From the NCBI GenBank assembly GCA_001784585.1, contig MFRN01000035.1, forward strand, positions 42,925 through 106,924: a stretch of 64,000 bases of DNA, given 5' to 3'. The first letter of the stretch is position 1. Each line of letters starts with the position of its first letter. The notes beneath the pieces were generated by a model, which searched no databases, was not told where the DNA came from, and saw only the letters and a program-made list of their open reading frames with translations. Below, piece after piece: positions 1,129 to 40,421 of this stretch. This DNA comes from Candidatus Melainabacteria bacterium RIFCSPLOWO2_02_FULL_35_15. Its GTDB lineage: Bacteria > Cyanobacteriota > Vampirovibrionia > 2-02-FULL-35-15. The position numbers and the translations under genes were made by a program.

Positions 1129-4100
1129 CTAAGGGCAGGGGCTTCCAGTGGGTTTACAAGTATTACTTGCACTGCAGAAGAAACTCCCTGCCGGACAATT
1201 TTGTCCGCCGCCTGAAGAAGGGCATGTAATTTGACATGTGCCATCTGGGCATTTAGTTTGCCCGGCTGGACACGGACAAGCAGCTAGTGTTGTCTGACAT
1301 GAGTTATCGGGACATCTTATCGGAGTAGCTTGTGGGCAAGGGCATGTAATCTGACATGTACCATCTGAGCATTTAGTTTGCCCGGCTGGACACGGACAAG
1401 CAGCCAGTGTTGTCTGACATGAGTTATCGGGACATCTTATCGGAGTAGCTTGTGGGCATGTATCTCCGCCACCGCCACTACTGCTTGTACTAGTGCATGT
1501 AATTTGACATGTGCCATCTGAGCATTTAGTTTGCCCGGCCGGACACGGACAAGCAGCCAGTGTTACCTGACATGAGTTATCAGGACACATGATTGGAGTA
1601 GCTTGTGGGCATGTACCGCCACTGCTTGTACTGGTGCACTCAAGCTGTGTCACTTTGCAGCTTCCATCAGGACATCTTATTGGAGTAGCTTGCGGGCATG
1701 TGCCGCCACTGCTTGTGCTTGCACACTCAAGCTGTGTTACTCTGCAGCTTCCATCAGGACATCTTATTGGAGTAGTTTGTGGACATGTACCGCCACTGCT
1801 TGTACTGGTGCACTCAAGCTGTGTCACTTTGCAGCTTCCATCAGGACATCTTATTGGAGTAGTTTGCGGGCATGTGCCGCCACTGCTTGTGCTTGCACAC
1901 TCAAGCTGTGTTACTCTGCAGCTTCCATCTGGACACTTGATTGGTTTGTCTTGTGGACATGTAGTTGATCCACATTCAGTTTGATTAAATACACACTTGC
2001 CATCAGGACACTTAAATTGTCCTAGTGGACATGCGCCACCACTGCTTGTGCTGGTGCACTCAAGCTGTGTTACTCTGCAGCTTCCATCTGGACACTTGAT
2101 TGGTTTGTCCGGTGGACAAGGACCACCGCCGATGCATTTTTGAGTAACAGGATCAAATTTCTGATCAGGTGGACATTCTCCTTTGCCACATTCTGCCTGA
2201 GAAGGTTTACATAAACCATCCGGACACTTTACAGGTTTATCTGGTGGGCATTGTCCACCGCCAAAGCCACCGCCAAAACATGGTTTACACTCTGGAGGAA
2301 TATCTCCAGTTGATCCGCCGAAACCAGAAGGTTGCGTACCGCCTGGCGTTTGTTCAAGAAGTTTTCTTACATATTGGCTGCATGAGGCAGGGCAATTGTC
2401 CTGGCCGCCTTTTCCTTTTTTACAACCTCCGCCTTCATCTCTGACAAGTCCTTGTCCAAATTTTTCACAAATTGGTAAACAAGCTTCTTGTCCATTTGAA
2501 AGTTTTCCTGGTTCATACTTATCAGGATCAGGGCATGATTTCTTACAACTTTCTACTGCAACATCAGTAGCAACCTTGTCAGAACCAAAATTAGCTGTTA
2601 AATCTTTACAAAGACAACTACGTAAGTCACCTCCAAGTGGAATTGGTCCAGGGCCACCAAATCCTCCCATACCACTACCAAAGCCGCCAAATTGTTGTGC
2701 AGCAAATGTTGTGCTTGTACAGCAACCTTTAGTAACTATGCCAGAACCAAAATCACAAACAGGCCTGCCACTTTTAGCGTCACATGTTTGATGGCACTTA
2801 CATACTTTACAATCCTGAGGAAATCCAAAACCGCCACCAGGGGCACCAGGACCACTGGGACCACCAGGGGTACCAGGACCGCCAGGGCCACCAGCAGTTG
2901 ATCCGCCAAATGTTTGTTCTAAGCCTGTAAATGAAGGTTTTCCAAACTGACTTTCACAATCTTTATGACAACGGGTTAGTACACAGAGTTGTCTGGCTAT
3001 GTCGTTTGGAGTAGTTGGCGCACTTTCACCAGGAGGAAAAAATCCACCCTGTAGTTTAGAAGGAACACAGAATTTTTTACCATTACCTGCATCACCAATA
3101 GCCCAGTCAGGACCAGGGTTTGTCGGGTCAGGAATACATTCAGAAGCTGGTACTCCGTCTTTTGCATCTATTTCAAAGCAGAATAAATCTCTTGGCGGTT
3201 TTTTTACAAAACATTGACCAGGGCCGCCCGGAGTGCTACCTGGTGACGGGCCAGATACTTGTGCTAATCGAGTTATTGGTCCTGGGCCAGCGGGGCCTCC
3301 TTGTGGGCCGCCACAAACACCAAATGGCTGAACACAATTTTTTAGAATGCTTGCAAACTTAGTACATTCTGGCGGAGGACAAACTGGTTTAGGACCTTTA
3401 GCATTTGGCAGTACAAACTTTTCATATACATCACAGGGACTGCCTTTTTCTTCTCCTTTGGTAGCATGCTTACAATAAACTTCTGCTATTTTTTCCAGAG
3501 GCAGTTTCTCAATGAATTCCTTTCCTTCAAAGTTACAAACACTAAAATATGTAGACTTAACATCATTTCCTAGTGCTGCATCAGGTTTATCACAACGATT
3601 TGCAAGCAATTTAACATCCGGACATGCAGCAGAAGGTGTAGGTAAACCACCACTGCTTGAAGTTGATGTGCCACCTGTAATATCATCTAATTTTTGTTTT
3701 ACTGCCTGATCGGCAATTTCGTTAAGTGCTTCTTCATCTCCTTCTGCTGCTGCTTTTAAATAATCGAGCTCTTGAGTCGTCTCTTCTGTTACTTCAATAG
3801 CTTCATTTTCTGAGATTGCTTCATTTGCGTCCGGGTCAGTGCTAAGAGGGACCAGTGCTTCTAGTTCTGCATCTTTATCCTCATCAATGTTTACAGCAAC
3901 AACTCCCGGTTCTGTATCATCTTCGAGTAAAGTATTACTTTCATCTTCAGTTTGTGCTGACAGTTTTCTATTCTTAGTAGTAGTAGTGTTTGAAGGAAGA
4001 TTTTTTGCCCTTACTTCTGTAAAGAATGCACCGTTATTACTTGTGATAACTGACTTATCTGAAATCATATCTCCTTCAAGATCTTCTACTGTTACTACAC

Positions 4101-4647
4101 CTGTTGATTTTGTCTTAGCAGTACCAACAACAAGTGCAGGCGGTTCATATGTAAATGAACTGGTAGTAATATTTATATCTTTTCCATCGGAAATTGTTAG
4201 TTTATATTGATCACCGGGAAGTGAACTGGGTGAAACAGTAATTCCTGACTGGTTAGTAATAGAAAATAAATTTACGACCAGGAACTTACCGGATTTTTTC
4301 TTTAGTTTTCTGTTCTGTACTGTAACTGACTCTGTAGGTACTGTATAAGTTTTTGTGGAGTCTAATGCTGAAGTTAAAGTAACAGTAAGTTTACTTACAC
4401 CAGATTTTCTGACTTTTGCCAACTGATTCGGTGGAAGAGCTACGTTAGCATCATCAGCTGTAGGTATTAAAATACTTCCATATATGGTTTGCTCACCATC
4501 GTTACTAAATACCTGAATGCTAGCTGATGTTTTACCTTTCTTCCCTTTTGCACTTGTTTCATTTGTCGTACAAAATTCAAAAGAAATAAAAGCAAGTGCC
4601 ACAACAAAAAATATCAAAATAAATTTTTTCACAGTTTTTCCTCCCAT
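1129..4647 (-). CDS. Large secreted cysteine-rich tandem-repeat protein (1172 aa). It has a signal peptide, two predicted beta-sandwich N-terminal modules, an acidic linker, a Gly/Pro low-complexity Cys-rich region, and C-terminal 29-aa and 40-aa Cys repeats.
   Basis: ORF track gives 1172 aa. The N-terminus MGGKTVKKFILIFFVVALAFISF is hydrophobic. The C-terminal half contains the unit CPDGSCRVTQLECTSTSSGGTCPQTTPIR repeated about 8 times, then CPCPAGQTKCSDGTCQIT-type units. An upstream RBS GGAGG is present at 4649-4660 (complement). Confidence 0.85.
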   Translation of the reverse strand: MGGKTVKKFILIFFVVALAFISFEFCTTNETSAKGKKGKTSASIQVFSNDGEQTIYGSILIPTADDANVALPPNQLAKVRKSGVSKLTVTLTSALDSTKTYTVPTESVTVQNRKLKKKSGKFLVVNLFSITNQSGITVSPSSLPGDQYKLTISDGKDINITTSSFTYEPPALVVGTAKTKSTGVVTVEDLEGDMISDKSVITSNNGAFFTEVRAKNLPSNTTTTKNRKLSAQTEDESNTLLEDDTEPGVVAVNIDEDKDAELEALVPLSTDPDANEAISENEAIEVTEETTQELDYLKAAAEGDEEALNEIADQAVKQKLDDITGGTSTSSSGGLPTPSAACPDVKLLANRCDKPDAALGNDVKSTYFSVCNFEGKEFIEKLPLEKIAEVYCKHATKGEEKGSPCDVYEKFVLPNAKGPKPVCPPPECTKFASILKNCVQPFGVCGGPQGGPAGPGPITRLAQVSGPSPGSTPGGPGQCFVKKPPRDLFCFEIDAKDGVPASECIPDPTNPGPDWAIGDAGNGKKFCVPSKLQGGFFPPGESAPTTPNDIARQLCVLTRCHKDCESQFGKPSFTGLEQTFGGSTAGGPGGPGTPGGPSGPGAPGGGFGFPQDCKVCKCHQTCDAKSGRPVCDFGSGIVTKGCCTSTTFAAQQFGGFGSGMGGFGGPGPIPLGGDLRSCLCKDLTANFGSDKVATDVAVESCKKSCPDPDKYEPGKLSNGQEACLPICEKFGQGLVRDEGGGCKKGKGGQDNCPASCSQYVRKLLEQTPGGTQPSGFGGSTGDIPPECKPCFGGGFGGGQCPPDKPVKCPDGLCKPSQAECGKGECPPDQKFDPVTQKCIGGGPCPPDKPIKCPDGSCRVTQLECTSTSSGGACPLGQFKCPDGKCVFNQTECGSTTCPQDKPIKCPDGSCRVTQLECASTSSGGTCPQTTPIRCPDGSCKVTQLECTSTSSGGTCPQTTPIRCPDGSCRVTQLECASTSSGGTCPQATPIRCPDGSCKVTQLECTSTSSGGTCPQATPIMCPDNSCQVTLAACPCPAGQTKCSDGTCQITCTSTSSSGGGGDTCPQATPIRCPDNSCQTTLAACPCPAGQTKCSDGTCQITCPCPQATPIRCPDNSCQTTLAACPCPAGQTKCPDGTCQITCPSSGGGQNCPAGSFFCSASNTCKPTGSPCP
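1200..2110. repeat. Coding tandem DNA repeats inside the 1129..4647 gene: about 3 units of 120 bp (roughly 1226-1585) followed by about 6 units of 87 bp (roughly 1594-2110).
   Basis: The 87-bp units alternate between two variants (gtaccgccactgcttgtactggtgcactcaagctgtgtcactttgcag versus gtgccgccactgcttgtgcttgcacactcaagctgtgttactctgcag), giving a 174-bp higher-order repeat. Units differ by only a few substitutions. Confidence 0.85.
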
Positions 4648-4934
4648 AAAGAAAATATCTTTTATAATGCTAACCTCTTAACTGCTAATAAGTGAAATAA
4701 ATGTCACACAAGATACATACTATATAACGCGACATAAATGCTAACGCATATTATGTCGCTATTTTATGGCGGATCTTCATTGGCGTTCGGGTTGTCGAAG
4801 GACAACCCTCACTTGTAACATTACTTAGGTCGCTGCGTATATATAAAGATTTTCATTATGAGGGATACAGATAATTACTAAAAAGTATTAATTTTTTTGT
4901 CAATTTTAGAAATAAAAGGAACAAAAGCTTACGC

Positions 4935-4944: not shown

Positions 4945-5366
4945 ATGAAGTTCCTCAAGCAGTTACGTTTTATTTATACATTTTATGCCAGGTTATTGGT
5001 AAGGAAAAATCTTGAAGGGATTTCTCCGGTATAAAGAAATGAGGAAAGTCCGGGCTCCATAGGGCTGGTTGCTTCGTAATGCGAAGTGCACGTAAGTGTG
5101 AGGAAAGTGCCACAGAAATGAAGACCGCCCCGTGAGATAATTTCATATCTCACGGGGTAAGGGTGCAACGGTGAGGTAAGAGCTCACCAGATTTTGCGGT
5201 GACGCAAGAACTAGGTAAACCCCGCTGAAGGTGCAAGGATAAGGTATAGGATTGAATCACAGTGGCCCGCTGCTCAATTCTGCCAAAGCCGCTTGAGGGT
5301 ATTGGTGACAATACTCCCAGATAGATAACTGCATAAACAAAACCCGGCTTATGAGGAACTTCATTC
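4945..5366 (+). ncRNA. rnpB: RNase P RNA, bacterial type A (M1 RNA)
   Basis: Universal P4 motifs GAGGAAAGTCCGGGCTCCATAGGGC (5041-5065) and ACAAAACCCGGCTTA (5336-5351) are present. A 13-bp P1 stem is formed by ATGAAGTTCCTCA (4945-4957) and TGAGGAACTTCAT (5352-5364), followed by a T-tract. Internal GNRA-type and conserved regions include GTAAGAGCTCACCAG. Length is about 420 nt. Confidence 0.9.
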
Positions 5367-5420
5367 TTTTTAATAACTTCAGGTACTCCATCAGCAAACC
5401 GGGCAGTCTATATAAAGGTA

Positions 5421-5478
5421 GCTCTGAGGAGCAACGTCACCGCCGCCAGAGGCGAGGCGGCAAGAGCCACCCGAGTAA
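5421..5478 (+). repeat. GC-rich hairpin element in the leader of the Nit-family gene
   Basis: A 58-nt GC-rich stretch (gaggagcaacgtcaccgccgccagaggcgaggcggcaagagccacccgag) sits in otherwise AT-rich DNA. It contains the stem GCCGCC/GGCGGC with an agaggcga loop. Confidence 0.4.
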
Positions 5479-5483
5479 TAACT

Positions 5484-6362
5484 ATGAATAAACTTAAAGT
5501 TGCTGCAGCTCAGATGTCAAGCGGGAGCAATAAAGAAAAAAATCTGGCACAGGCAAAAAAATTAATAACTTTAGCTGTAAGAAAAAAAGCAAGGTTTATT
5601 GTTCTGCCGGAGGTTTTTAATTATCGCGGAAATTTAAATGAAGCAGTTAAATTTGCTGAATCTGTTCCGGGATATTCTACAGATCTCATTTCACGGCTTG
5701 CAAAAAAATATAAGATCTGGATTTTAATTGGCAGTATGTTAGAAACTGCAGGGGCAGGTCGTGCCGCTCGTAAAACGAGCGGGCCTCGCTCACAAAGTGG
5801 GCGGGACCTGCCCTTTAATACATCAGTTTTAATTAACCCAAATGGAAAAATTGTTACAAAATACAGAAAGATACATTTATTTGACATCAGGTTAAAAGGA
5901 AAAGAAATCCTGGAGTCAGGCAGAAATCAGGCTGGTAAAAATCCAAAGTTAGCAAAGATTGAAAATATAAAAGCAGGGTTGAGTATTTGTTATGATTTAA
6001 GATTCCCGGAACTGTATCGTCATTATTCCAGAGCTGGTGCAAAAATTATTTGTATTCCCTCATCTTTTACCAGGCTTACAGGTGAAGCTCACTGGCATAC
6101 ACTTATAAAAGCAAGAGCAATAGAAAATCTCTCTTATGTAATAGCACCGAATCAGGCTGGAATCGGATCAGGTGGAATCAAAACTTACGGACACAGTTTG
6201 ATCGTGGATCCGTGGGGAAAGATTTTAGCTGAAGGACCGGCAAACGGTGAAACTGTTATATTTGCTGATATTGATCTGGAATACCTGAAGCAAGTTAGAA
6301 AAAATTTACCGGCACTGGAACATAGAAAAATATTTTGTTTACGAAATACGAACGACGAATGA
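5484..6362 (+). CDS. Carbon-nitrogen hydrolase (nitrilase/Nit superfamily amidohydrolase)
   Basis: The catalytic triad context is present: FIVLPE (Glu), YRKIHLFD (Lys) and ICYDLRFPE (Cys). Length is 292 aa. Confidence 0.85.
   Translation: MNKLKVAAAQMSSGSNKEKNLAQAKKLITLAVRKKARFIVLPEVFNYRGNLNEAVKFAESVPGYSTDLISRLAKKYKIWILIGSMLETAGAGRAARKTSGPRSQSGRDLPFNTSVLINPNGKIVTKYRKIHLFDIRLKGKEILESGRNQAGKNPKLAKIENIKAGLSICYDLRFPELYRHYSRAGAKIICIPSSFTRLTGEAHWHTLIKARAIENLSYVIAPNQAGIGSGGIKTYGHSLIVDPWGKILAEGPANGETVIFADIDLEYLKQVRKNLPALEHRKIFCLRNTNDE
5752..5815. repeat. GC-rich palindromic element inserted in-frame within the Nit hydrolase CDS
   Basis: Sequence ggcaggtcgtgccgctcgtaaaacgagcgggcctcgctcacaaagtgggcgggacctgcc has the inverted repeats GGCAGGTC...GACCTGCC and GAGCG-ggcc-tCGCTC. 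It encodes about 15-17 extra residues (TAGAGRAARKTSGPRSQSGRD) between the conserved GSMxE and FNTS motifs, relative to the usual Nit-family spacing. Confidence 0.6.
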
Positions 6363-8248: not shown

Positions 8249-8268
8249 AGAAAAGGAGAAGTAAAGAC

Positions 8269-9303
8269 ATGCCATGGCATGTCTCAACAAATATGGGAGT
8301 AACTAAAGATATGCCATGGCATGTCTCAAATATGGGAGCAACTGTGACAGAAAAAAAAGAATCAATTGCAACAAGAGTTGCCTATGGAAAAGCACTCCTT
8401 GAGCTTGGGAAAGAAAATCCAAACATTGTAGTACTTGATGCAGATCTTTCCGGTTCTACGCAAACCAAATTCTTTGCGAAGGAATTTCCGGAAAGATTTT
8501 TTAATATGGGAATTGCAGAGCAAAACATGATAGGTGTTGCAGCCGGGTTATCAAGTACTGGCAAGATTCCTTTTGCAAGCAGCTTTGCAATGTTTGCATG
8601 TGGTCGTGCCTGGGAGTTTGTCAGAAACTCTGTTTGTCACAATATGTTTAATGTAAAAATTTGTGCAACACATGCAGGATTAACTGTAGGTGAAGATGGC
8701 GGCTCTCATCAGATTATTGAAGATCTGGCTATTATGAGGGCAATACCGCACATGACAGTTATTGTTCCTGCTGACGCTACTGAAGCAAAACTTGCTACAA
8801 GAGCTATTGCCAGCTTTTTTGGTCCTGTTTATATGAGACTTGGAAGATCAAATGTGCCGGTTTTATTTGATGAAAAAAAATTTGAGTTTAAAATCGGAAA
8901 AGCACAAATTATAAAAAGCGGGATTGATGTTTCTGTTTTTGCCTGCGGAGTAATGGTGAGCAGAGCTCTCTGGGCAGCTGAAATTTTGCAAAATGAAGGA
9001 ATAAGTACAGAGATTATAAATGTTTCTACTATTAAACCTCTTGATAAAGAAACTATTTTAGCCAGTGTACAAAAAACAGGTTGTGCAGTTACATGCGAAG
9101 AACATAATATCCATGGGGGACTTGGTGATGCTATTGCCTCTGTACTTACTGAAAATCATCCTATACCTATGAAAAAAACTGGTGTTATGGATCAATTCGG
9201 GCAAAGCGGAAAAAGTGATGAACTTCTTGTTCATTATGGATTAACTAAAGAAAAAATTGCTGAGGCTGCCAGAGAAGTTATTAAAAGGAAGTTAATAAAT
9301 TAG
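8269..9303 (+). CDS. Transketolase, C-terminal subunit (split transketolase). The start is ambiguous because of a 42-bp tandem duplication at the 5' end.
   Basis: Conserved motifs ATRVAYGKALLELG...VVLDADLSGST and the pyrimidine-binding/C-terminal domains are present. An RBS AAGGAGA lies upstream of ATG 8269. Alternative starts occur at 8311 and 8332. Confidence 0.85.
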   Translation: MPWHVSTNMGVTKDMPWHVSNMGATVTEKKESIATRVAYGKALLELGKENPNIVVLDADLSGSTQTKFFAKEFPERFFNMGIAEQNMIGVAAGLSSTGKIPFASSFAMFACGRAWEFVRNSVCHNMFNVKICATHAGLTVGEDGGSHQIIEDLAIMRAIPHMTVIVPADATEAKLATRAIASFFGPVYMRLGRSNVPVLFDEKKFEFKIGKAQIIKSGIDVSVFACGVMVSRALWAAEILQNEGISTEIINVSTIKPLDKETILASVQKTGCAVTCEEHNIHGGLGDAIASVLTENHPIPMKKTGVMDQFGQSGKSDELLVHYGLTKEKIAEAAREVIKRKLIN

Positions 9304-9362: not shown

Positions 9363-9623
9363 ATGAATAAACGGATCGGAAAACAAAAAGCAAAAGAAAC
9401 ACTCCCGAAGCTCCTTGATATGGTTAATAAAGGGCTTGGACCAATTGAAATCATTGATCAAAAAAAAGATGAAGCAGTTGCATATCTGATTTCACCGGAA
9501 GATTATAAAAAGAAATCCAGGAAAAAATCGTACGCTGGATTTTTAAAAGGAAAGCTTATAGTTTCTCCTGATTTTGATGAACCAGACTGGGAACTCATTA
9601 GATTAATTGAGAAATCAGAATGA
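9363..9623 (+). CDS. Phd/YefM-family type II antitoxin
   Basis: 86 aa. The pattern IGKQKAKETLPKLLDMVNKGLGPIEIIDQKKDEAVAYLISPEDY matches the Phd/YefM fold consensus. It overlaps the downstream PIN gene by 4 bp. Confidence 0.65.
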   Translation: MNKRIGKQKAKETLPKLLDMVNKGLGPIEIIDQKKDEAVAYLISPEDYKKKSRKKSYAGFLKGKLIVSPDFDEPDWELIRLIEKSE

Positions 9624-10039
9624 AGCTTTTTGTAATAGACACAAATATTTATATAGACTACATGCTGAAAGGAACAAATTGCTTTTCAAAATTAGTAAAC
9701 CATTTCTTTAAATTACTTGAGGTAAAAGAATGTATATTTTATGTGCCTGCAATATGCTTTTGGGAAATCAGCAGAAAAATTATTACCGGCAAATTAACCA
9801 TGCAAAAAAAATCTCCAGAGGAAGCATTATGGTTAATGCAAAAACCATTAGATAATGTGGAGGATTTTAGGGATTTACCGCTTACCCGGAAAGCAGCAGC
9901 TTTAGCATCTGGTTTTAGAGCTAAGCTGCCAGATCCATTTGATCAATTAATAGTTGCTTCGGCACTGGATGCAAATTTGCCTTTAATTACAAAAGATCAA
10001 AACATGCAAAAATCAGGATTAATACAAACTGTTTGGTAG
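9620..10039 (+). CDS. vapC: PIN-domain ribonuclease toxin (VapC-like)
   Basis: 139 aa. The N-terminus FVIDTNIYIDY carries the first acidic residue. Further acidic residues occur in FWEIS, DPFDQLIVASA and ITKDQ at typical PIN spacing. It is translationally coupled to the antitoxin. Confidence 0.75.
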   Translation: MKLFVIDTNIYIDYMLKGTNCFSKLVNHFFKLLEVKECIFYVPAICFWEISRKIITGKLTMQKKSPEEALWLMQKPLDNVEDFRDLPLTRKAAALASGFRAKLPDPFDQLIVASALDANLPLITKDQNMQKSGLIQTVW

Positions 10040-10252: not shown

Positions 10253-11533
10253 TTGCCAATAAAAAATAATATGCCAGAAGGAATAAGTCCATTAAGTGGA
10301 AGAGTCGAAGCAAGATTTGACAGAGTTTTAGAAAACAGAGCAAGAGACATAAGTTCTGGACGTAGATTTACACCCCTTGGAGGAAATTATTATCAGACAT
10401 ATGAATATGATCCGGATGTTAATGGACAATATTTAAGAAGAGAAAATGGACCGTATATTTACAACACAGGTACAGGTAGAGGAAATAGATATATTCCCGG
10501 ACATGACATAAATTCTGACGGTACATTTACAAGAACATATTTATTACCCAGATCGCAGGCACCTGCTATCTCATACTTAAGCAGGCAGGATGCAATCAGG
10601 CATTTAAGTTTGCTTGAAAATCCAGATGGTACTTTTCGCAGACATGGATTTGTAGGAACTTATACAACAAGAAATGACGGAACAGTTTTCTATGGAGGTG
10701 GTTACCATCCAAATAATGGCAGACGGGTAGATCTTCCTCCACAAACTTATATTAATGGCAGATGGTATGAAGGTGATATAAGACCAGGTTCTATTCCGCA
10801 GCCTGGAGTTGGAGAAGTACAACCACGACCTGGAGCCGGAGGAGTACAACCGCAGCCTGGAGTCGGCGGAGTACAGCCACGACCTGGAGCCGGAGGAGTA
10901 CAACCGCAGCCTGGAGTTGGAAGAATACAACCGCAGCTGCCAAGAATAGAAGTACCACCAATAACAGCAGGTACAAACGGAAGGATAGCTTTACCTCCTG
11001 GAGTACGACTAACAAGAATAACAGCACCTGGAGCAACAGCATGGACAGAACCAGGTTCATATGAATATCAAGGTGGATTTAAAATGAATAAAAATGGCAG
11101 CTATACATTTGCTCCTGGAGCAGATCCATATCGGGCAAGCGGAACATATACATTGAGAACAAATGATGGAAGAGAGTTTCAATTACAGGTAAACTCACCA
11201 CCGCCAATTTCACAACCGCTACCGGTGGCTTCACCATCACGGTTTGACATTCATCAGGATCTTCGTGCATATCTGAGAGCTCTTGCAGGGGATTTTGGAG
11301 AAGAGCAGGGAGAAATAGAATTTATTCTTTCACAACTGGAGCAGGCAGCTACTCCGGGAGATAATGATCTTACAGAATTAATTCGTAGAAGAGATCCTTC
11401 ATTAAGTCAGGTAGTTTTGAATTTAGAACAGCTTGCAGGAATTCATACCAGACGCGGAGAAGCAGATCTGGCAGATCGAGCTAAGCAGCTTGCACAGTTG
11501 ATCCGGCCTTATGTACCAATACTGCCAGCATGA
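10253..11533 (+). CDS. Hypothetical protein with Gly/Pro-rich 26-aa tandem repeats (GVQPQPGVGGVQPRPGAG) and a GC-richer Ala/Leu/Arg-rich C-terminal region
   Basis: ORF of 426 aa with a 78-bp DNA repeat at about 10801-10940. No signal peptide. No recognisable catalytic motif. Confidence 0.55.
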   Translation: MPIKNNMPEGISPLSGRVEARFDRVLENRARDISSGRRFTPLGGNYYQTYEYDPDVNGQYLRRENGPYIYNTGTGRGNRYIPGHDINSDGTFTRTYLLPRSQAPAISYLSRQDAIRHLSLLENPDGTFRRHGFVGTYTTRNDGTVFYGGGYHPNNGRRVDLPPQTYINGRWYEGDIRPGSIPQPGVGEVQPRPGAGGVQPQPGVGGVQPRPGAGGVQPQPGVGRIQPQLPRIEVPPITAGTNGRIALPPGVRLTRITAPGATAWTEPGSYEYQGGFKMNKNGSYTFAPGADPYRASGTYTLRTNDGREFQLQVNSPPPISQPLPVASPSRFDIHQDLRAYLRALAGDFGEEQGEIEFILSQLEQAATPGDNDLTELIRRRDPSLSQVVLNLEQLAGIHTRRGEADLADRAKQLAQLIRPYVPILPA

Positions 11534-14353: not shown

Positions 14354-15403
14354 ATGCAGTCAAACATTCAAAATTTTCAAACTACTACTGAAATGTCTTA
14401 TGTAAATAATGATCAGGTGAAAAATAAAGCTGAATTATTGTTTTCAAAGCTGAAAGAATATTTAAAATCAATTAAGCCGGATGAGTCTTTGTTTTTTAAC
14501 AAAGGTGAAACAGTGTATATTCCGGATATTCATGGAGATTTTGTACATTTAATAGTTACATTATATAAGCATGGTGTTTCAGACTCTGATTTAAGTTTAA
14601 AGAGAGATTTCAAATATATTTTCTTAGGTGATTTTTATGACAGGGCTCCGGATGCAGATGTAATTGATTTTTGGTTGAATCTCCAGATAAAAAATAGTCT
14701 TGAGATTTATAGATTAGCCGGAAATCATGAAATGGCTTTTCTGGAAAGAAATGAAAAAGGTTACCCTGTAATATTTCCTTCTCAGGATTCTATAATAGAT
14801 GCTTCCAGTAATTTTAGAATTACAGGAGATTTAATAAAGTCTGTTGCAGAAGGAAATATTCTGGCAGCATATTCTGATGAAAATATATTATATGTCCACA
14901 GCTACATAATTAACGATGACTACAAAGAATTAGGATTAGAAACCAATTCAAATGTTTTTGATTTTGCAACTGCTTTAAACCAGCGATTTAAACAACATGG
15001 ACAGAATGCATACAATCTTTTTTTAAATTGTAAAAAAGAAAAAAAATATAACTGGAAAGAAATAATCAAACCGTTTAAAGATGATCCTTTGTTTGATATT
15101 TACAAAGGGAAAAATGACATAAATACTTCTTTTGTCTGGCGAAGGACAGGCTTACCGGCTTTAAATATTTATCCGGCAGAGCTTGATGTGGAAATTCCTG
15201 ATGATGTTTATCAGATAGTCGGACATACACCTGTTTTTTTATTTAATATTCCACAGAATCAGCATTTTACATGTCCTTTTGTTTTATCATCAAAAACTGG
15301 TACAGGAAAAATTCAGTTTAGCGATGTAGGAATCGGATATTACTACAAGAAAGATGATTTTGAAAGACCGGAAGTTGTGATTAAGAGATTAATGGCTACC
15401 TAA
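14354..15403 (+). CDS. PPP-family metallophosphoesterase (Ser/Thr phosphatase/ApaH-like)
   Basis: 349 aa. Signature motifs PDIHGD, LGDFYDRAP (GDxxDRG) and AGNHE (GNHE) are present in canonical order. Confidence 0.75.
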   Translation: MQSNIQNFQTTTEMSYVNNDQVKNKAELLFSKLKEYLKSIKPDESLFFNKGETVYIPDIHGDFVHLIVTLYKHGVSDSDLSLKRDFKYIFLGDFYDRAPDADVIDFWLNLQIKNSLEIYRLAGNHEMAFLERNEKGYPVIFPSQDSIIDASSNFRITGDLIKSVAEGNILAAYSDENILYVHSYIINDDYKELGLETNSNVFDFATALNQRFKQHGQNAYNLFLNCKKEKKYNWKEIIKPFKDDPLFDIYKGKNDINTSFVWRRTGLPALNIYPAELDVEIPDDVYQIVGHTPVFLFNIPQNQHFTCPFVLSSKTGTGKIQFSDVGIGYYYKKDDFERPEVVIKRLMAT

Positions 15404-15762
15404 AAATAATTCCATTTTATCTGAAAACTAAGCAGCAAAGCCTTTTCAGCTTGTTTCATTTTTTCGTCTGATATCTTGCCTAATCTTTTAGCAAATCTGG
15501 CTATATCTGTTGTTTTGATTTGATTAAAAAGTGCCATTGATTTATTTCTCAAGCCACCTTCTCCTTTTTCTAATACAACTGCAAAAGGCCAGCTTTCTTT
15601 AATAGTACTTGTTACTGGTGCAATCATTGTAGTCTGTAGTGTTTCATTTATCAAATCACTTTGCATAACAAGGCATGGCCTGGTCTTTTTAATTTCTTTA
15701 CCAATTGCAGGATCTAAATTCACTATCCAGATCTCGCCACGTTTTGGTTTTATATCTGCCAC
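15400..15762 (-). CDS. mazF: MazF/PemK-family endoribonuclease toxin
   Basis: 120 aa. RGEIWIVNLDPAIGKEIKKTRPCLVMQSD...IAPVTS matches the MazF/PemK consensus. Confidence 0.8.
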   Translation of the reverse strand: MADIKPKRGEIWIVNLDPAIGKEIKKTRPCLVMQSDLINETLQTTMIAPVTSTIKESWPFAVVLEKGEGGLRNKSMALFNQIKTTDIARFAKRLGKISDEKMKQAEKALLLSFQIKWNYF

Positions 15763-17721: not shown

Positions 17722-18075
17722 ATGAAGCTCTACCTTGACGAAAACATTTCACCACTTGTTGCTAAAAAACTTAGAGAAAAAGGATTTGATGTAATATCAG
17801 TGCACGAAAACAATACCCGGTCAAAAAGTGATATTGAACAGTTTGAACTTGCCATAAGAGAAAAAAGGGCCATAGTTACATATGATGTTATAGATTTTAC
17901 AGACTTAGCAAAAGGATATATTGCAAAGGTAAAACCGCATTCCGGGATAATTTTAGTAAGTAATAAAACCATTCCGCAGGGAAATTCGAAAAAACTTGCC
18001 GTTTCACTGGAAAAATTATTACACCATAAAGAAAAAGATTTTTTAGAGAACAGAATTGTGTATTTAACAAAATAA
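17722..18075 (+). CDS. DUF5615-family protein (Mut7-C/PIN-like putative toxin) paired with DUF433
   Basis: 117 aa. The N-terminus MKLYLDENISPLVAKKLREKGFDVISV matches DUF5615. The gene starts 3 bp after the DUF433 stop. Confidence 0.6.
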   Translation: MKLYLDENISPLVAKKLREKGFDVISVHENNTRSKSDIEQFELAIREKRAIVTYDVIDFTDLAKGYIAKVKPHSGIILVSNKTIPQGNSKKLAVSLEKLLHHKEKDFLENRIVYLTK

Positions 18076-20324: not shown

Positions 20325-20831
20325 TTAAAAACCAATTCTTTTTCTTGATTTTACTTCAGGTTCTGTCAAACGTTTTATTGCCTCAAATACTATTTGAAAT
20401 TGGTTATCGTATTTTTTCTCTATCTCTTCAATCTTTTTTCTTAGGTCTTTATTACTTTCAATCATTTCCCGAAGCTTTGTGAAGGTTCTCATTATCTGAA
20501 TATTTACATTAATAGCCATTTCGCTGTTTAAAACAGTTGAGAGCATAGCAACACCCTGCTCGGTGAAAGCATATGGTAATGAAGTGGAATGTTTTAGTCT
20601 CTTGAACCGATCACAATTTGTGATCAGTTCATCCCTTTCATGTATAGTAAGCTGAAACATGAAATCTTCAGGGAAACGCTTAATATTTCTTTTAACTGAT
20701 TGATTTAAAGTTCTGGTTTCAACTTCATATAGGTTTGCCAGATCTACATCGATCATGACTTTTTTACCTCGTATTAAGAGAATCCTTTTTTCAATTTTTT
20801 CAACTGGTATTAAAGTTGTATTCATATTCAA
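20325..20831 (-). CDS. ORF6N-domain protein (phage/mobile-element-associated DNA-binding family)
   Basis: 168 aa. The VMIDVDLANLYEVETRTLNQSVKRNIKRFPEDFMFQLT and YAFTEQGVAMLS motifs are present. It is paralogous to 62474..63010. Confidence 0.7.
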   Translation of the reverse strand: MNMNTTLIPVEKIEKRILLIRGKKVMIDVDLANLYEVETRTLNQSVKRNIKRFPEDFMFQLTIHERDELITNCDRFKRLKHSTSLPYAFTEQGVAMLSTVLNSEMAINVNIQIMRTFTKLREMIESNKDLRKKIEEIEKKYDNQFQIVFEAIKRLTEPEVKSRKRIGF

Positions 20832-28570: not shown

Positions 28571-29725
28571 ATGGGTGACTCGTTAACAATAAAACCAGTG
28601 CTGGCAAACGGGCCAACTGCAAAACTTTCTGGTCCGCCAGATAATGGACAAAAAGAAACAGTCCCGCCAATAAACAATCAGGCTGCTATAATTCCTCTAT
28701 TAGAAAGATCGGGGGTTCCAACAAGTGCTTATGTACCGTCTCCCGATACAACAAGTGATTTTCTTCTAGTCTCAGATTCAGGCAAGGTTTTTACTATGCC
28801 AGTTTTTCCAAATGGAAAAGAAATTTCCGGAATAAAAGGAAATTACACTATTATTGAAAGAGTTGGAATTGGCGGAGTAGGAGAAGTATATAAAGCAAAA
28901 AACAATGATACCGGAGAATTTGCGGCTGTAAAAGTAGTAAGCCTGGAAAACCGGCACAACCCTGTAGTGGTTGCACGTTTTCTTAAAGAGATTGAAATAA
29001 CAAACAGACTACAGCACCCCGGTATAATAAGGATTATAGATCTGGAAAAAACAGATGGCAAAAATGATCAGGAACATCCGCCTTGTTTTTTAGTAATGCC
29101 ATATATTGAGGGCGGGTCGCTTGAGCAGGAATTAAAAAAGAATCACAAAATAAATCCAATTGATGTAGTGAAAATTGCTATTGGAATTTCTGATGCTTTA
29201 GATCATGCGCACAGACAAAGGCCTTCAATATTACATCGTGATATTAAACCAGGAAATATTATGCTCGATGATAAAGGTAATCCAATTCTTGTAGATTTTA
29301 ATATTGGTTCAATTGAAGATGCCTCTACAATAAATCCAACTGGTCAGGAACTGCCCAAAACATATCATTATATGTCGCCTGAACAAGCCAGAGGTATTGG
29401 GAAAGAGCAATTACCTCCTGCTACAGATCTGTTTTCTTTAGGATCTACAATGTTTCATTTAGTAACCGGAGAGTATCCTTTTACCGGAGATAAGCCTGGA
29501 ATAGTATCAACCAGAATTCAGGATCCTTTTGATTATCCAAAATTGCCTCATGAAATTAATCCAGAGGTACCTCTGGAATTAAGTGTACTAATTATGGATA
29601 TTATGGCTAAGGATTACCAGGATAGAGAAGATATGTTTCCCCAGGGAGCTCTTAGTGTTAAACAAAGATTATGCTGGATACTAAGCGATATGGAAAAAGA
29701 TAAATCAACTAGCGTAGCAGCTTAA
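28571..29725 (+). CDS. Hanks-type Ser/Thr protein kinase with an ~90-aa N-terminal extension
   Basis: 384 aa. Gly-loop GIGGVGEVYKA, VAIK-like AVKVV, catalytic loop HRDIKPGNIML, DFN in place of DFG, and MSPEQ (APE-like) are present. Confidence 0.8.
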   Translation: MGDSLTIKPVLANGPTAKLSGPPDNGQKETVPPINNQAAIIPLLERSGVPTSAYVPSPDTTSDFLLVSDSGKVFTMPVFPNGKEISGIKGNYTIIERVGIGGVGEVYKAKNNDTGEFAAVKVVSLENRHNPVVVARFLKEIEITNRLQHPGIIRIIDLEKTDGKNDQEHPPCFLVMPYIEGGSLEQELKKNHKINPIDVVKIAIGISDALDHAHRQRPSILHRDIKPGNIMLDDKGNPILVDFNIGSIEDASTINPTGQELPKTYHYMSPEQARGIGKEQLPPATDLFSLGSTMFHLVTGEYPFTGDKPGIVSTRIQDPFDYPKLPHEINPEVPLELSVLIMDIMAKDYQDREDMFPQGALSVKQRLCWILSDMEKDKSTSVAA

Positions 29726-36453: not shown

Positions 36454-37296
36454 TCAATCGATTTTTTTCGCAACCACGAAATGCCCTATGGTATCTCTTA
36501 GGCTTCCAAATAACTGATCCAGGGTTAAAAAAAGTATATTGATAATTGGTATAAGGATAATTGCTAATAAGATTAACGGTGATTTGTAAACAGCGTACAT
36601 AATACTTTTCCCAAGATCTTCTGATTTTTTTCCTGATAAAAGATTAAAAATATTTTTTACATGATTTAAATCAAAAAGTAAAATCATTGCATTACACAAT
36701 GCCTGACCGACTAAAGCAAAAGATCTCCCGATTCCATTCATATAAATAATTTCAAATCCTAATTCGCTAATTTTTTCTTTTAAGATATACTTTGTAAAGC
36801 GGAGATAGTCATGTGGTTCTTCATGCAGATGCCAGTACTGGGGGATTGAGATTATAAAAATCCCATTGATTTTTAAAATTCTTTTAAATTCTTTTAATAC
36901 CTCAAATGGCTCTGAAACATGTTCAAGAACTGAGAACGAAATTATAGTGTCAATCGAATTATTTAAAGCACTTATCTCAGGAAGTTCAGACAGATAATCA
37001 TATTTAACATTTTCTTTAGCTGCTTCCGGATGTTCATGTTTTAAATATTGTTCTATATGTTGCAAAAAATAATTTTGAAACGGAGACGAACCGCATCCCA
37101 CATCCAGAAGTATTCCTTTGGAATATGAAGCATTTTTTTTAATTTCTTTTATCAGATAATAATAAGAAAGAAAACAATAGTTAAATATAGAAAGATTAAT
37201 TTTATTGCTTTGCCTGAGAGCATTTTCTCTCAGGTTTTCTATTACTTGTTTGGGTTTTTCTTTTGTAAGTGGCATAGAAATTAGGTTTAACAGCAT
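36454..37296 (-). CDS. Class I SAM-dependent methyltransferase
   Basis: 280 aa with motif I LLDVGCGSSPF. Confidence 0.6.
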   Translation of the reverse strand: MLLNLISMPLTKEKPKQVIENLRENALRQSNKINLSIFNYCFLSYYYLIKEIKKNASYSKGILLDVGCGSSPFQNYFLQHIEQYLKHEHPEAAKENVKYDYLSELPEISALNNSIDTIISFSVLEHVSEPFEVLKEFKRILKINGIFIISIPQYWHLHEEPHDYLRFTKYILKEKISELGFEIIYMNGIGRSFALVGQALCNAMILLFDLNHVKNIFNLLSGKKSEDLGKSIMYAVYKSPLILLAIILIPIINILFLTLDQLFGSLRDTIGHFVVAKKID

Positions 37297-39269: not shown

Positions 39270-40421
39270 ATGGATAGGATATACGACTGCATTATCGTTG
39301 GCGCAGGACCTGCTGGTGGAGCAGCTGCTTATCACCTGGCAAAAGATGGACATAAAGTTTTAGTTATTGAAAAAGAATCTCTCCCCCGCTATAAACCATG
39401 CGGCGGGGGAGTATCGCCAGTTATTAGAAAATGGTTTGATTTTGATTTTAGTCCTGTTATTTCTCAAAAGATAAGAGCTTTTAGATATACATGGTGCGGA
39501 GATGATCCTGTAGATATCGAACTTAAATTAAAAGAACCTCTCTGGATGGTAAGAAGAAATGAATTTGATTTTTATATTATTAAACAGGCACAAAAACTTG
39601 GCGCTGAGTTACAGGATAAGACCGAAGTGATTGGGATTCAATTCAAAGATAATCTCTGGCATGTTGAGGCAATTCATGAATTGCCTCAGCAAATAAGAGT
39701 TGAAAAAGCTTTTTACTTAATTGCCTGTGATGGAGCTAAAGGTCCAATAGCTAATTTTTTAGGTTTTAAAAACAGAAAACATATTATCGGCGGCGCTATT
39801 GAAGCTGAAGCTTCTGTAAAAGTTAATAATAGTTCAACAGCTCATTTTGAATTTGGAATGGTAAAAAACGGTTATCTCTGGAATTTTCCAAAAATCGACG
39901 GATATTCTTTAGGAATAGGAATATTTAAAAACAATCAAAAACAAAATTTAAAATCCATTGTAAGTAAATATTCAAAAATATTTGATATTGATTTTAATAC
40001 TACAAAACAATACGGGCATCCGATTTCACTTTGGAGCGGGAATCAAATACTTCACACCAAAAATGAAAGAGCTATTCTGGCTGGTGAGGCTGCTTGTGTA
40101 GTCGATCCGCTTACTGCAGAAGGAATCAGACCATCAATCTTTACAGGACTAAAAGCTGCAGAAGCTGTAAGTAAAGCACTTTCAGAAGATACCTCTGCTA
40201 TTAAAAATTACACAAAAATTATCCATAAAGAAATTGGCACTGATATGAAGATAGCAAATAATTTATCGAAAATACTGTACAGATTCCCAGATATTTGCTA
40301 TAAAAAAATTTTAAAAAGACAGTCAGCTACAAATATAATGGCAAAAATTTTATGCGGAGAGATGAGATATAGTGATATTAAAAAAGAGACCTTTGAACAT
40401 TTGACTAAAATGTTTTTTTAA
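39270..40421 (+). CDS. FAD-dependent oxidoreductase of the geranylgeranyl reductase family
   Basis: 383 aa. The N-terminal dinucleotide fold YDCIIVGAGPAGGAAAYHLAKDGHKVLVIEKE is present. Confidence 0.65.
   Translation: MDRIYDCIIVGAGPAGGAAAYHLAKDGHKVLVIEKESLPRYKPCGGGVSPVIRKWFDFDFSPVISQKIRAFRYTWCGDDPVDIELKLKEPLWMVRRNEFDFYIIKQAQKLGAELQDKTEVIGIQFKDNLWHVEAIHELPQQIRVEKAFYLIACDGAKGPIANFLGFKNRKHIIGGAIEAEASVKVNNSSTAHFEFGMVKNGYLWNFPKIDGYSLGIGIFKNNQKQNLKSIVSKYSKIFDIDFNTTKQYGHPISLWSGNQILHTKNERAILAGEAACVVDPLTAEGIRPSIFTGLKAAEAVSKALSEDTSAIKNYTKIIHKEIGTDMKIANNLSKILYRFPDICYKKILKRQSATNIMAKILCGEMRYSDIKKETFEHLTKMFF

What the first reader, a model, noticed from the sequence alone, without database searches (positions are those of the whole stretch)
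5752..5815. GC-rich palindromic element inserted in-frame inside a Nit-family hydrolase gene
Within an AT-rich CDS, about 64 nt have high GC and strong dyad symmetry (GGCAGGTC...GACCTGCC and GAGCGggccTCGCTC). They add roughly 15-17 residues (TAGAGRAARKTSGPRSQSGRD) in the loop between the conserved GSxxE and (Y/F)NTS motifs, relative to the usual spacing in this enzyme family. The reading frame and catalytic residues are intact. This resembles the in-frame palindromic-element insertions described in Rickettsia (RPEs), but in a different lineage. A second GC-rich hairpin lies just upstream in the leader (5421-5478).
Basis: partly seen in the sequence, partly recalled or inferred. Interest (0 to 1): 0.6.

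Follow-up and report, generated by a model that had tools for sequence, protein, structure and literature searches.

The report
Nested palindromic DNA elements inside a gene
A 62-base GC-rich hairpin-forming insert sits in frame in a surface loop of a Melainabacteria Nit hydrolase gene; it is made of two nested small palindromic repeat elements that also occur in other genes, spacers and RNase P RNA of related genomes, much like Rickettsia's in-frame palindromic elements.

Summary
Window 5752-5813 is a 62-nt segment of GC 0.68 in a 35% GC genome. It folds into a three-way junction (RNA -44.3 kcal/mol, z -6.0). It lies in frame in the CN_hydrolase gene 5484-6362 and lengthens a loop that is 5 residues in the shortest relatives to 22 residues.

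The insert is a composite. The outer part (T1) is a 24-nt palindrome headed by GTAG, degenerate here to GCAG. The same arms occur as a simple hairpin in orthologues and in unrelated intergenic sites of related genomes. The inner 42 nt (T2, CCGCC...GGCGG) is a second module. In relatives T2 sits exactly at the tip of three different T1 palindromes in three different genes.

The window holds a second in-frame T1, in a geranylgeranyl-reductase gene (39663-39690). It also holds T1 copies in the transketolase spacer and a weak T1+T2-like composite in the Nit leader.

AlphaFold gives pLDDT below 50 for the insert, so it is probably a tolerated disordered loop. The catalytic residues are conserved.

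The closest known kinds are GTAG-tagged REPs (intragenic cases are published), Rickettsia RPEs and cyanobacterial SDRs. Genome-wide copy number and a RAYT transposase could not be tested. Verdict: a new member of a known kind, in a phylum where I found no published description, with clear two-tier nesting.

The parts
5484..6362 (+). Host gene: Nit-type carbon-nitrogen hydrolase (292 aa), intact reading frame
   Evidence: ORF. Pfam PF00795 at E 2.2e-64. 100% identical to a protein that NCBI names as from a Candidatus Melainabacteria MAG. PDB relatives are 1EMS, 2W1V and 1F89.
5748..5751 (+). Degenerate head of the outer element (T1): GCAG, where orthologues L082 and L083 have GTAG
   Evidence: Loop DNA table. 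The GTAG head is seen on the same palindrome in L082, L083, L003, L169 and L081.
5752..5760 (+). T1 5' arm, GGGCAGGTC
   Evidence: The same arm forms a simple hairpin in L082 (GGGCAGGTCGTGACCTGCCC).
5761..5762 (+). Remnant of the original T1 loop (GT)
   Evidence: Comparison with the simple hairpin in L082. The placement is ambiguous by a base or two.
5763..5804 (-). Inner element (T2), 42 nt with CCGCC...GGCGG termini, forming two hairpins (5764-5782 and 5786-5804). It is in reverse orientation relative to the copies in L081 and L172.
   Evidence: Fold. Alignment A3 with the T2 copies in L172 (geranylgeranyl-reductase and methyltransferase genes) and L081 (Nit). Similarity scores against shuffles. 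No other copy in the window.
5805..5813 (+). T1 3' arm, GACCTGCCC. Its last codon, CCC, encodes the conserved Pro of the PFNTS motif.
5417..5471 (.). Leader segment between RNase P RNA and the Nit start. It has a weak outer stem GGTAGCTCT/AGAGCCACC (8 of 9 positions complementary) around a T2-like core CCGCCAGAGGCGAGGCGGC (5443-5461). Probably a decayed composite of the same plan.
   Evidence: The GC-rich leader has no counterpart in the four relatives aligned; L081 and L088 carry a 28-nt GTAG palindrome immediately 3' of RNase P RNA. 15/16 nt match to T2. DNA fold z -2.0 and -2.5. RNA fold not significant.
39663..39690 (+). Second in-frame palindrome in this genome: GTTGAGGCAATTCATGAATTGCCTCAGC in the geranylgeranyl-reductase family gene 39270-40421 (peptide VEAIHELPQ)
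   Evidence: 25 of the 29 aligned homologues lack it; the four that carry it are the window's own protein, a 99%-identical protein (P0122), and P0123 and P0128, where a further nested insert sits inside it. Its 18-nt core is identical to the in-frame insert in the acyl-CoA dehydrogenase gene of L169. L172 has T2 inserted at its exact centre. DNA fold z -4.3.
8261..8326 (+). Two tandem T1 copies (GTAA/CTAA + AGAYATGCCATGGCATGTCT) in the spacer between the two transketolase subunit genes
   Evidence: The same T1 core is found in L085 (spacer) and in a methyltransferase ORF of L172, there with T2 nested inside it.
4789..4812 (-). T1-format element, GTGA + GGGTTGTCCTTCGACAACCC, intergenic upstream of RNase P RNA
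   Evidence: 2 tagged hairpins in the window against 0.0 in 30 shuffles.

Best explanation
The insert is selfish or neutral repeat DNA, not part of the ancestral enzyme.

Step 1, shown by comparison. An ancestor of this Melainabacteria sub-clade acquired a 24-28-nt REP-like palindrome (T1) in the DNA that encodes a beta-hairpin turn of the Nit hydrolase. T1 has the format GT[AG][AG] head plus a 20-nt perfect palindrome, often followed by a CTAC tail.

Step 2, shown by comparison. A second GC-rich hairpin module (T2) was copied into the very tip of that palindrome. T2 is 30-42 nt with CCGCC...GGCGG ends.

Step 3, inferred. Both elements probably spread through single-stranded hairpin DNA. The agent would be either an HUH/Y1 (RAYT or IS200-like) transposase acting in trans, or template switching or gene conversion between copies. 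Hairpin tips and a few permissive sites are the preferred landing places. Homologous recombination between alleles then shuffles which variant sits at a site.

Step 4, inferred from the pattern. Only copies that keep the frame, carry no stop codon and fall in tolerant loops survive inside genes.

In the protein, the 62 nt are read through as a disordered loop of 22 residues rich in Gly, Arg, Ser and Ala. In the mRNA they form a very stable three-way junction that may slow ribosomes or affect mRNA stability. Nothing indicates that this has been selected for.
For: Insert specific to the lineage.

Simple-hairpin precursor state in orthologue L082, and decayed or partly deleted remnants in L001/L170, L087 and L171.

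Dispersal of T1:
- GTAGGGGCAGGATTTATCCTGCCC is identical at two non-homologous intergenic sites (L003 upstream of Nit; L169 transketolase spacer). A type-A copy also lies in the L081 transketolase spacer.
- GTA[AG]GGGCTTGCC[AG]TGGCAAGCCC occurs in the Nit loop of L089 and in the transketolase spacer of L003.
- The GGAGACGCGATTAATCGCGTCTC core occurs twice in one genome (L171): once in the RNase P RNA hairpin and once in a decarboxylase ORF.

Statistics: 22 GT[AG][AG]-tagged 8-bp hairpins in 95.6 kb of related loci against 0.2 in shuffles, and 2 against 0.0 in the window.

Other in-frame insertions, verified by protein alignment:
- L170 phosphoesterase-like gene, +9 aa; L169 acyl-CoA dehydrogenase, +6 aa.
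- Window geranylgeranyl reductase, about +6 aa.
- L172 methyltransferase, +12 aa, absent from the otherwise nearly identical window orthologue.

Nesting: the T2 copy in L172 sits exactly at the symmetry centre of the palindrome that is uninterrupted in the window. Four full T2 copies (in three genes) and the truncated leader core align.

The AlphaFold model has pLDDT below 50 for residues 91-106, between strands 79-87 and 111-117.

Published precedent: intragenic GTAG- and CGTC-tagged REPs and REPs inserted within palindromes (PMC3733652); RPEs (PMC10969869).
Against: The complete 62-mer, and each of its inner hairpins, are single-copy in the 64-kb window.

The window's copy has GCAG rather than GTAG as its head.

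No GTAG-tagged hairpin with 10-nt arms was found in the window. The window is much poorer in these elements than some relatives.

No Y1/HUH transposase was found among 20 small or medium ORFs of the window, nor in the Pfam lists of the fetched loci.

Genome-wide copy number is unknown, because the rest of this MAG could not be reached.

Within one genome the T1 cores differ a good deal from each other, unlike classical REP families, which have one consensus.

Different palindromes at the same codon position in close relatives can also arise from allelic recombination, or conceivably from local hairpin genesis.
Confidence: 0.72

Rival explanations
1. Local de novo hairpin genesis. The palindromes arise in place, by replication template switching or snap-back synthesis in a mutation-tolerant loop, and are kept perfect by quasi-palindrome correction. 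There is no mobility and no element family.
For: - Zero-spacer perfect 30-nt palindromes in the Nit loop of L003 and L088 differ only by changes compensated on both arms.
- Other variants of the loop are AT-rich tandem repeats (L002, L084, L085) or a hairpin whose arms are themselves tandem repeats (L086), which suggests a locally unstable site.
- The 3' arm of several palindromes overlaps native codons (K-P-F).
- The basal-loop sequence of L090 already contains GGGCAG.
- Type B was seen only in this loop.
Against: - Identical or near-identical 18-24-nt palindromes and 20-nt T2 segments occur at non-homologous loci.
- The format is uniform: a 4-nt GT[AG][AG] head plus a 20-nt palindrome, about 100-fold above shuffles.
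- The same core occurs twice in one genome (L171).
Confidence: 0.12
2. A selected RNA (or single-stranded DNA) structure inside the coding sequence. It could be a processing or stability determinant, a translational pause site for co-translational folding, or a protein-binding hairpin. On this view the structure is maintained by selection and the sequence is free to vary.
For: - Very strong fold on the sense strand (z -6.0), better than on the antisense strand.
- The two G-T pairs in hairpin 2 are wobble pairs only on the sense strand.
- Changes compensated on both arms occur between orthologues.
- Many T1 copies lie just 3' of genes, where REPs are thought to act on transcripts (PMC3733652).
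Against: - Many close orthologues have no hairpin at all (5-residue loop). Others have decayed arms (L001/L170, L087, L171) or AT-rich repeats in its place.
- No terminator-like site was called at the element, and no Rfam family matches at E up to 1.
- T1 palindromes are perfect Watson-Crick palindromes on both strands, which points to the DNA level rather than to RNA selection.
- T2 is tolerated in both orientations.
Confidence: 0.08
3. Protein-level adaptation. The extra Gly/Arg/Ser-rich loop was selected for a new property of the enzyme, such as an interaction surface or oligomerisation, and the DNA palindromy is incidental to its origin.
For: - The frame is kept in all 109 homologues whose loop could be extracted, whatever the insert.
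- Inserts are often basic.
Against: - Loop sequences are unrelated between close relatives. T2 in opposite orientations gives RAARKTSGPRSQSG in one and PATGEARLQSER in the other.
- The loop is predicted to be disordered.
- The same DNA elements occur in non-coding spacers and in RNase P RNA.
Confidence: 0.05

Closest known systems
GTAG-tagged REP elements (repetitive extragenic palindromes, REPINs) and their intragenic copies (Di Nocera et al. 2013, PMC3733652)
   Same: - A short (20-40 bp) GC-rich stem-loop with a GTAG-type tetranucleotide at one end.
- A stem of about 9-10 bp and a very short loop, and sub-families that differ by complementary stem changes.
- Preferred position just 3' of genes.
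- Occasional in-frame copies inside genes that encode known proteins.
- REPs inserted within other palindromes are described, and the class is reported in Cyanobacteria, the sister lineage.
   Different: - In many copies here the head is itself paired with a CTAC tail, giving perfect 28-nt palindromes. Published REPs have an unpaired tag.
- Cores within one genome are heterogeneous.
- No RAYT was found, and copy number per genome is unknown.
- The window's own Nit copy has a mutated head (GCAG).
- A distinct second-tier module (T2) colonises the hairpin tips.
Rickettsia palindromic elements (RPEs)
   Same: Palindromic repeats inserted in frame into unrelated housekeeping genes and translated as extra peptide segments, compatible with fold and function (PMC10969869; PMC3733652).
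   Different: - RPEs are about 100-150 bp and each family encodes a conserved peptide. Here the units are 24-42 nt and the peptides vary with core and orientation.
- The host phylum differs: Melainabacteria (Vampirovibrionia) against Alphaproteobacteria.
- There is no sequence similarity.
Small dispersed repeats (SDR4-6) of Nostoc and other cyanobacteria (Elhai et al. 2008, Genome Res 18:1484). The paper was not readable here and is cited through PMC4390886; the rest is from my own knowledge.
   Same: Very small (21-27 nt) hairpin-capable repeat modules that insert into each other and at precise positions inside palindromes. SDR5 inserts between nucleotides 3 and 4 of HIP1. The host phylum is related.
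   Different: No sequence relationship was tested. In-frame coding insertions are not the defining feature of SDRs.
Short tandemly repeated repetitive (STRR) sequences in helix P12 of cyanobacterial RNase P RNA (Vioque 1997, NAR; from my own knowledge)
   Same: Repeat elements are tolerated inside the same peripheral helix of RNase P RNA where L169 and L171 carry T1-like palindromes.
   Different: STRRs are tandem heptamers, not palindromes. This bears only on the side observation, not on the Nit insert.

Membership tests
GTAG-tagged REP family | Short (20-40 bp) GC-rich palindromic stem-loop | tested here: met
   T1 is a 9-10-bp stem with a 0-4-nt loop. In the window the Nit copy has a 9-bp outer stem.
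GTAG-tagged REP family | GTAG (or GYRG-type) tetranucleotide at one end of the stem-loop | tested here: inconclusive
   Met in orthologues and in dispersed copies (GTAG, GTAA, GTGG). The window's Nit copy has GCAG, which fits the published degenerate form GYAG, and its geranylgeranyl-reductase copy has GTTG. In many copies the head pairs with a CTAC tail instead of being unpaired.
GTAG-tagged REP family | Many dispersed copies in one genome (tens to thousands) | not testable with these tools
   Only 64 kb of this genome is available. It holds about 5 T1-format elements. Related loci hold 22 tagged strand-hits (about 15 elements) in 95.6 kb against 0.2 expected, but all of those loci come from the neighbourhood of one gene.
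GTAG-tagged REP family | Association with a RAYT (Y1/HUH tyrosine transposase) gene flanked by REPs | tested here: inconclusive
   No Y1_Tnp hit among 20 ORFs of the window, nor in the Pfam lists of about 115 kb of related loci. Whole genomes were not searched.
Rickettsia palindromic elements (RPE) | Palindromic repeat inserted in frame in protein-coding genes, with the host ORF kept intact | tested here: met
   Nit. Geranylgeranyl reductase. Three further genes in relatives.
Rickettsia palindromic elements (RPE) | Element of about 100-150 bp that belongs to one of the RPE sequence families and encodes a conserved peptide | tested here: not met
   The units are 24-42 nt. The peptides differ with core and orientation. 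The organism is a Melainabacteria MAG. This works like an RPE but is not a member.
Cyanobacterial SDR elements (Elhai 2008) | Match to the SDR4, SDR5 or SDR6 consensus sequences | not tested
   The paper and its consensus sequences could not be read. Only the behaviour is comparable: nesting, and precise insertion within a palindrome.
Known structured RNA family (Rfam) | Covariance-model match | tested here: not met
   No match at E up to 1 in 5370-5870. At gathering thresholds the window matches only RNase P RNA and an AdoCbl-II riboswitch.

The most novel reading that the evidence does not exclude
These Melainabacteria may harbour an active two-tier hairpin system. On this reading, T2 modules specifically target the tips of T1 palindromes, and T1 and T2 cassettes turn over at fixed hot spots: the Nit loop, the transketolase spacer, the rnpB 3' end and RNase P helix P12. 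The mechanism would not be RAYT transposition. It could be cleavage of hairpin tips followed by templated repair. The system would act as a natural generator of length and sequence diversity in protein surface loops and in the peripheral helices of RNAs.
Probability: 0.15. Interest if true: 0.7.

Novelty: new member of a known kind. Interest (0 to 1): 0.45.

Why it matters
In-frame palindromic repeats are the textbook oddity of Rickettsia, and they have been noted for REPs in a few Proteobacteria and Verrucomicrobia. Finding the same phenomenon in Melainabacteria, the non-photosynthetic sister group of Cyanobacteria, extends it to another phylum. The two-tier nesting is clean, and insertions differ between alleles that are about 95% identical.

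This gives material for studying how such elements move, because the empty, T1-only and T1+T2 states of one site all exist in public data. It also gives material for studying how proteins and RNase P RNA tolerate the inserts.

There is a practical side too. These inserts inflate loop lengths, create spurious start-codon calls (as in the transketolase spacer) and can mislead alignment-based annotation of MAGs.

Tried and rejected
- Looked for further copies of the 62-mer and of each inner hairpin in the window, with up to 3 mismatches. None was found.
- Tested the leader segment as a copy of the Nit element. The pairwise similarity is not significant. Only a 16-nt T2-like core matches.
- Looked for GTAG-tagged hairpins with 10-nt arms in the window. 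None was found. A relaxed head and 8-bp arms gave 2.
- Considered a known RNA (ribozyme, riboswitch, tRNA-like). There is no Rfam or ARAGORN hit at the site.
- Considered an intragenic terminator. None was called at the element.
- The hairpin at 39381-39411 (CTCCCCCGC..GCGGGGGAG) looked like another insert, but it lies in what I recognise as the native PRYKPCGGG motif of the reductase, so I took it to be a chance hairpin (the motif's conservation was not shown in the alignment excerpt).
- GC-rich islands at 2808-2921, 10793-10928, 47464-47552 and 59873-59940 are Gly/Pro-rich coding repeats or ordinary coding sequence, not hairpins.
- The genome contigs and metagenome-contig scans with the Nit protein returned mostly distant Proteobacteria. 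Only 3 and 2 Melainabacteria loci came back, and the window's own genome was not recovered, so no genome-wide census was possible.
- A neighbour-joining tree of 109 Nit homologues shows loop types scattered across the tree. I first read this as repeated insertion, but a mosaic divergent tract of about 180 nt around the loop in L088 shows that allelic recombination can produce the same pattern. I therefore do not use the tree as evidence for mobility.
- A simple flip of the loop region between the window and L081 does not fit, because the 'GT' loop remnant keeps its sequence while T2 changes side. This is left unresolved.
Full report
**1. What is there**

The window is AT-rich (mean GC 0.352; sd of 60-nt windows 0.078). 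It comes from a Melainabacteria MAG: the protein encoded at 5484-6362 is 100% identical to a protein that NCBI names as from 'Candidatus Melainabacteria bacterium RIFCSPLOWO2_02_FULL...'. That ORF is a carbon-nitrogen hydrolase of the Nit type (PF00795, E 2e-64). Its nearest solved relatives are NitFhit 1EMS, Nit2 2W1V and yeast 1F89.

At 5752-5813 the sequence is GGGCAGGTC-GT-[42 nt]-GACCTGCCC. The 9+9 inverted repeat occurs once in the window and never in 100 shuffles. Local GC peaks at 0.68.

The 78 nt around the site fold into a three-way junction, an outer stem plus two 8-bp hairpins:
- As RNA on the sense strand: -44.3 kcal/mol, z -5.97.
- As RNA on the antisense strand: z -4.43.
- As DNA: z -6.4 and -5.2.

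No Rfam family matches, and the simple scan called no terminator-like site at the element.

The segment is in frame and free of stop codons. K129 and C169 are invariant and E43 nearly invariant in the alignment; together they are the Glu-Lys-Cys catalytic triad of the nitrilase superfamily, an assignment from my knowledge of the family.

**2. It is an insertion, in a hypervariable loop**

I aligned 27 homologues and extracted the loop from 109. The stretch between GSxxE and PFNTS is 5-7 residues (for example KSKNK or KAKSK) in many Melainabacteria relatives and in the more distant homologues. Against the solved Nit proteins the insert is almost entirely gapped. The window has 22 residues there.

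An AlphaFold2 model (mean pLDDT 83) has pLDDT below 50 for residues 91-106. It places them between strands 79-87 and 111-117. This fits a disordered turn extension.

**3. The outer part is a GTAG-headed palindrome (T1) that is dispersed**

I obtained DNA of the loop from 16 orthologous loci.

- L082 has just GTAG-GGGCAGGTC-GT-GACCTGCCC, a simple hairpin that encodes VGAGRDLP.
- L083, L169, L087 and L001/L170 have variants or decayed versions of it.
- L171 keeps only the 5' half.
- The window and L081 have the same arms with extra DNA in the tip.

The same element occurs elsewhere:
- GTAGGGGCAGGATTTATCCTGCCC is identical in L003 (between an upstream ORF and Nit) and in L169 (between the two transketolase genes).
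- L081 has GTAGGGGCAAGGTCATGACCTGCCC in its transketolase spacer.

More generally, the related loci are full of elements with one format: a GT[AG][AG] head, a 20-nt perfect palindrome, and often a CTAC tail that makes a 28-nt perfect palindrome. There are 22 strand-hits in 95.6 kb against 0.2 in shuffles. The window has 2 against 0.0.

Sub-families recur at unrelated places:
- GTA[AG]GGGCTTGCC[AG]TGGCAAGCCC is in the Nit loop of L089 and in the transketolase spacer of L003.
- (G)TAGAGACG... is in three different ORFs.
- The same family also lies inside a peripheral hairpin of RNase P RNA, which I take to be P12, in L169 and L171. L171 carries the same core in its RNase P RNA and in a decarboxylase ORF.

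**4. In-frame copies in other genes**

Protein alignments show clean in-frame insertions that coincide with palindromes:
- L170, a phosphoesterase-like gene: +9 aa.
- L169, acyl-CoA dehydrogenase: +6 aa, AGAIHELP.
- The window itself: the geranylgeranyl-reductase family gene 39270-40421 carries GTTGAGGCAATTCATGAATTGCCTCAGC at 39663-39690. This encodes VEAIHELPQ. Twenty-five of the 29 aligned homologues lack it; the carriers are the window's own protein, a 99%-identical protein, and P0123 and P0128. Its 18-nt core is identical to the L169 dehydrogenase insert.

**5. The inner part is a second module (T2) that lands on hairpin tips**

L172 encodes a reductase 91% identical to the window's. It has the same palindrome with 30 nt inserted exactly at its centre: GAGGCAATTC|CCGCCATAGGCGAGGCTCGCCAAGGGCGGC|ATGAATTGCCTC.

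- The first 21 nt of that insert match the start of the interior of the L081 Nit element at 20 of 21 positions.
- A third copy sits in the tip of yet another T1 (core AGACATGCC, the type found in the window's transketolase spacer). That T1 lies inside a methyltransferase ORF of L172 and adds 12 residues before the LDIGTGSG motif. The window's orthologue, nearly identical outside the insert, has neither element.
- The 42-nt interior of the window's Nit element aligns with these copies in reverse orientation. Both ends and the GCGAGGC.CGCTCG core are conserved (alignment A3). Scores are 34 reversed and 26 forward, against 12.4 +/- 4.8 for shuffles.
- The window's leader segment (5417-5471) carries a truncated T2-like core that matches at 15 of 16 positions. 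It lies between weakly complementary GTAG-type arms, and its fold is only marginal. This GC-rich leader has no counterpart in the four relatives aligned. L081 and L088 have a 28-nt GTAG palindrome immediately 3' of RNase P RNA.

**6. Interpretation**

The finding is a composite of two nested small palindromic repeats, tolerated in frame in a surface loop. Three things are shown:
- the insert is lineage-specific;
- both modules recur at non-homologous loci;
- nesting occurs at the exact symmetry centre.

Presence or absence also differs between otherwise nearly identical genes.

The rest is inferred. I propose mobility through single-stranded hairpin DNA, by analogy with REP/RAYT and IS200/IS605 biology. 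I found no Y1 transposase, but I could examine only about 180 kb (and the locus gene lists).

The scattered distribution of loop types on a Nit tree is not independent evidence for mobility. L088 shows a divergent tract of about 180 nt around the loop inside a gene that is otherwise 92-98% identical. Allelic recombination therefore moves the variants around.

Rivals:
- Purely local hairpin genesis explains the zero-spacer palindromes and their doubly compensated differences (L003 against L088). It does not explain identical modules at different loci.
- A selected mRNA structure is contradicted by the many orthologues that have no hairpin or a decayed one, and by T2 being tolerated in both orientations.

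**7. Comparison with known systems**

GTAG-tagged REPs match in size, head, stem and loop format, position 3' of genes, complementary sub-family variation, occurrence within other palindromes and occasional in-frame intragenic copies. They are reported in Cyanobacteria (PMC3733652). Two defining features could not be established: high copy number per genome and linkage to a RAYT gene.

The elements here are far smaller and unrelated in sequence, so they work like RPEs but are not members.

Cyanobacterial SDRs share the nesting and the precise insertion within a palindrome. I could not compare them at the sequence level.

A full-text search found no description of palindromic repeats in Melainabacteria.

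**8. Verdict**

It is a new member of a known kind: REP- or RPE-like in-frame palindromic elements. It has a neat two-tier nested architecture and sits in a new phylum.

Interest is moderate. The phenomenon is known, but the naturally occurring empty, T1 and T1+T2 states make the mechanism testable.

Noticed in passing
window 5013-5367 (+); hairpin 5128-5157; L169 2923-2958; L171 9043-9074; L087 about 385-484; L003 about 2179-2188: Bacterial class A RNase P RNA lies immediately upstream of the Nit gene. One of its peripheral hairpins (after GUGCCACAGAAA..GACCG; probably P12) is hypervariable. It is a 30-nt perfect hairpin in the window and 10 nt in L003. L087 has a 100-nt insert there, and L169 and L171 carry T1-family palindromes (TAGAGACGCGATTAATCG..).
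   Followed up: partly
window 8261-8330: The spacer between the transketolase N- and C-subunit genes holds a tandem duplication of about 42 nt. Each unit carries a 20-nt palindrome, AGA[CT]ATGCCATGGCATGTCT. The mechanical ORF 8269-9303 starts inside it (MPWHVS..MPWHVS). The real start is probably the downstream ATGGGAGCAACTGTG. Relatives carry different palindromes at this spot, or none (L170 has a 4-nt spacer).
   Followed up: partly
window 39663-39690: In-frame 28-nt palindrome (VEAIHELPQ) in the geranylgeranyl-reductase family gene. Twenty-five of 29 aligned homologues lack it. P0123 and P0128 have it with a further 10-11-residue nested insert.
   Followed up: yes
window 57879-57953 (+): AdoCbl-II (cobalamin) riboswitch, 47.9 bits, upstream of ORF 57989-59734.
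   Followed up: no
window 1129-4647 (-): A 1172-residue protein whose C-terminal half consists of many Cys-rich repeats (CPDGSC(R/K)VTQLEC..TSTSSGG), preceded by Gly/Pro-rich low-complexity regions that account for the GC-rich islands at 2808-2921 and 3193-3341.
   Followed up: no
window 10782-10945: GC-rich tandem coding repeat (PGVGGVQPQ / RPGAGGVQPQ) in ORF 10253-11533. It is a direct repeat, not a hairpin.
   Followed up: no
window 10550-10571, 29558-29579, 37213-37234, 53055-53084: Further 20-30-nt GC-containing near-perfect palindromes inside ORFs. As a class, 20-22-nt palindromes give 44 strand-hits against 17.6 +/- 5.6 in shuffles. I did not check whether these four are insertions relative to homologues.
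   Followed up: no
window 9363-10039, 15400-15762, 17722-18075, 20325-20831, 62474-63010: Several toxin-antitoxin-type genes (Phd/PIN pair, MazF/PemK, DUF5615/PIN_10) and two ORF6N-domain proteins.
   Followed up: no
Nit gene: window 5484-6362 against L081 and L088: The alleles are mosaics. L088 drops to 59-77% identity for about 180 nt around the loop inside a gene that is otherwise 92-98% identical. The window has its own divergent 60-nt tract near alignment column 540. This indicates frequent homologous recombination among these populations.
   Followed up: partly
L003 2437-2955, L170 9399-10004, L171 9402-9992; absent from the window, L081, L085, L087 and L088: An ORF of about 200 residues lies between RNase P RNA and Nit in some relatives but is missing in the window's sub-clade. 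In L003 and L089 that ORF itself carries an in-frame T1 palindrome (DRDVARNVST), with changes between the two loci compensated on both arms.
   Followed up: partly
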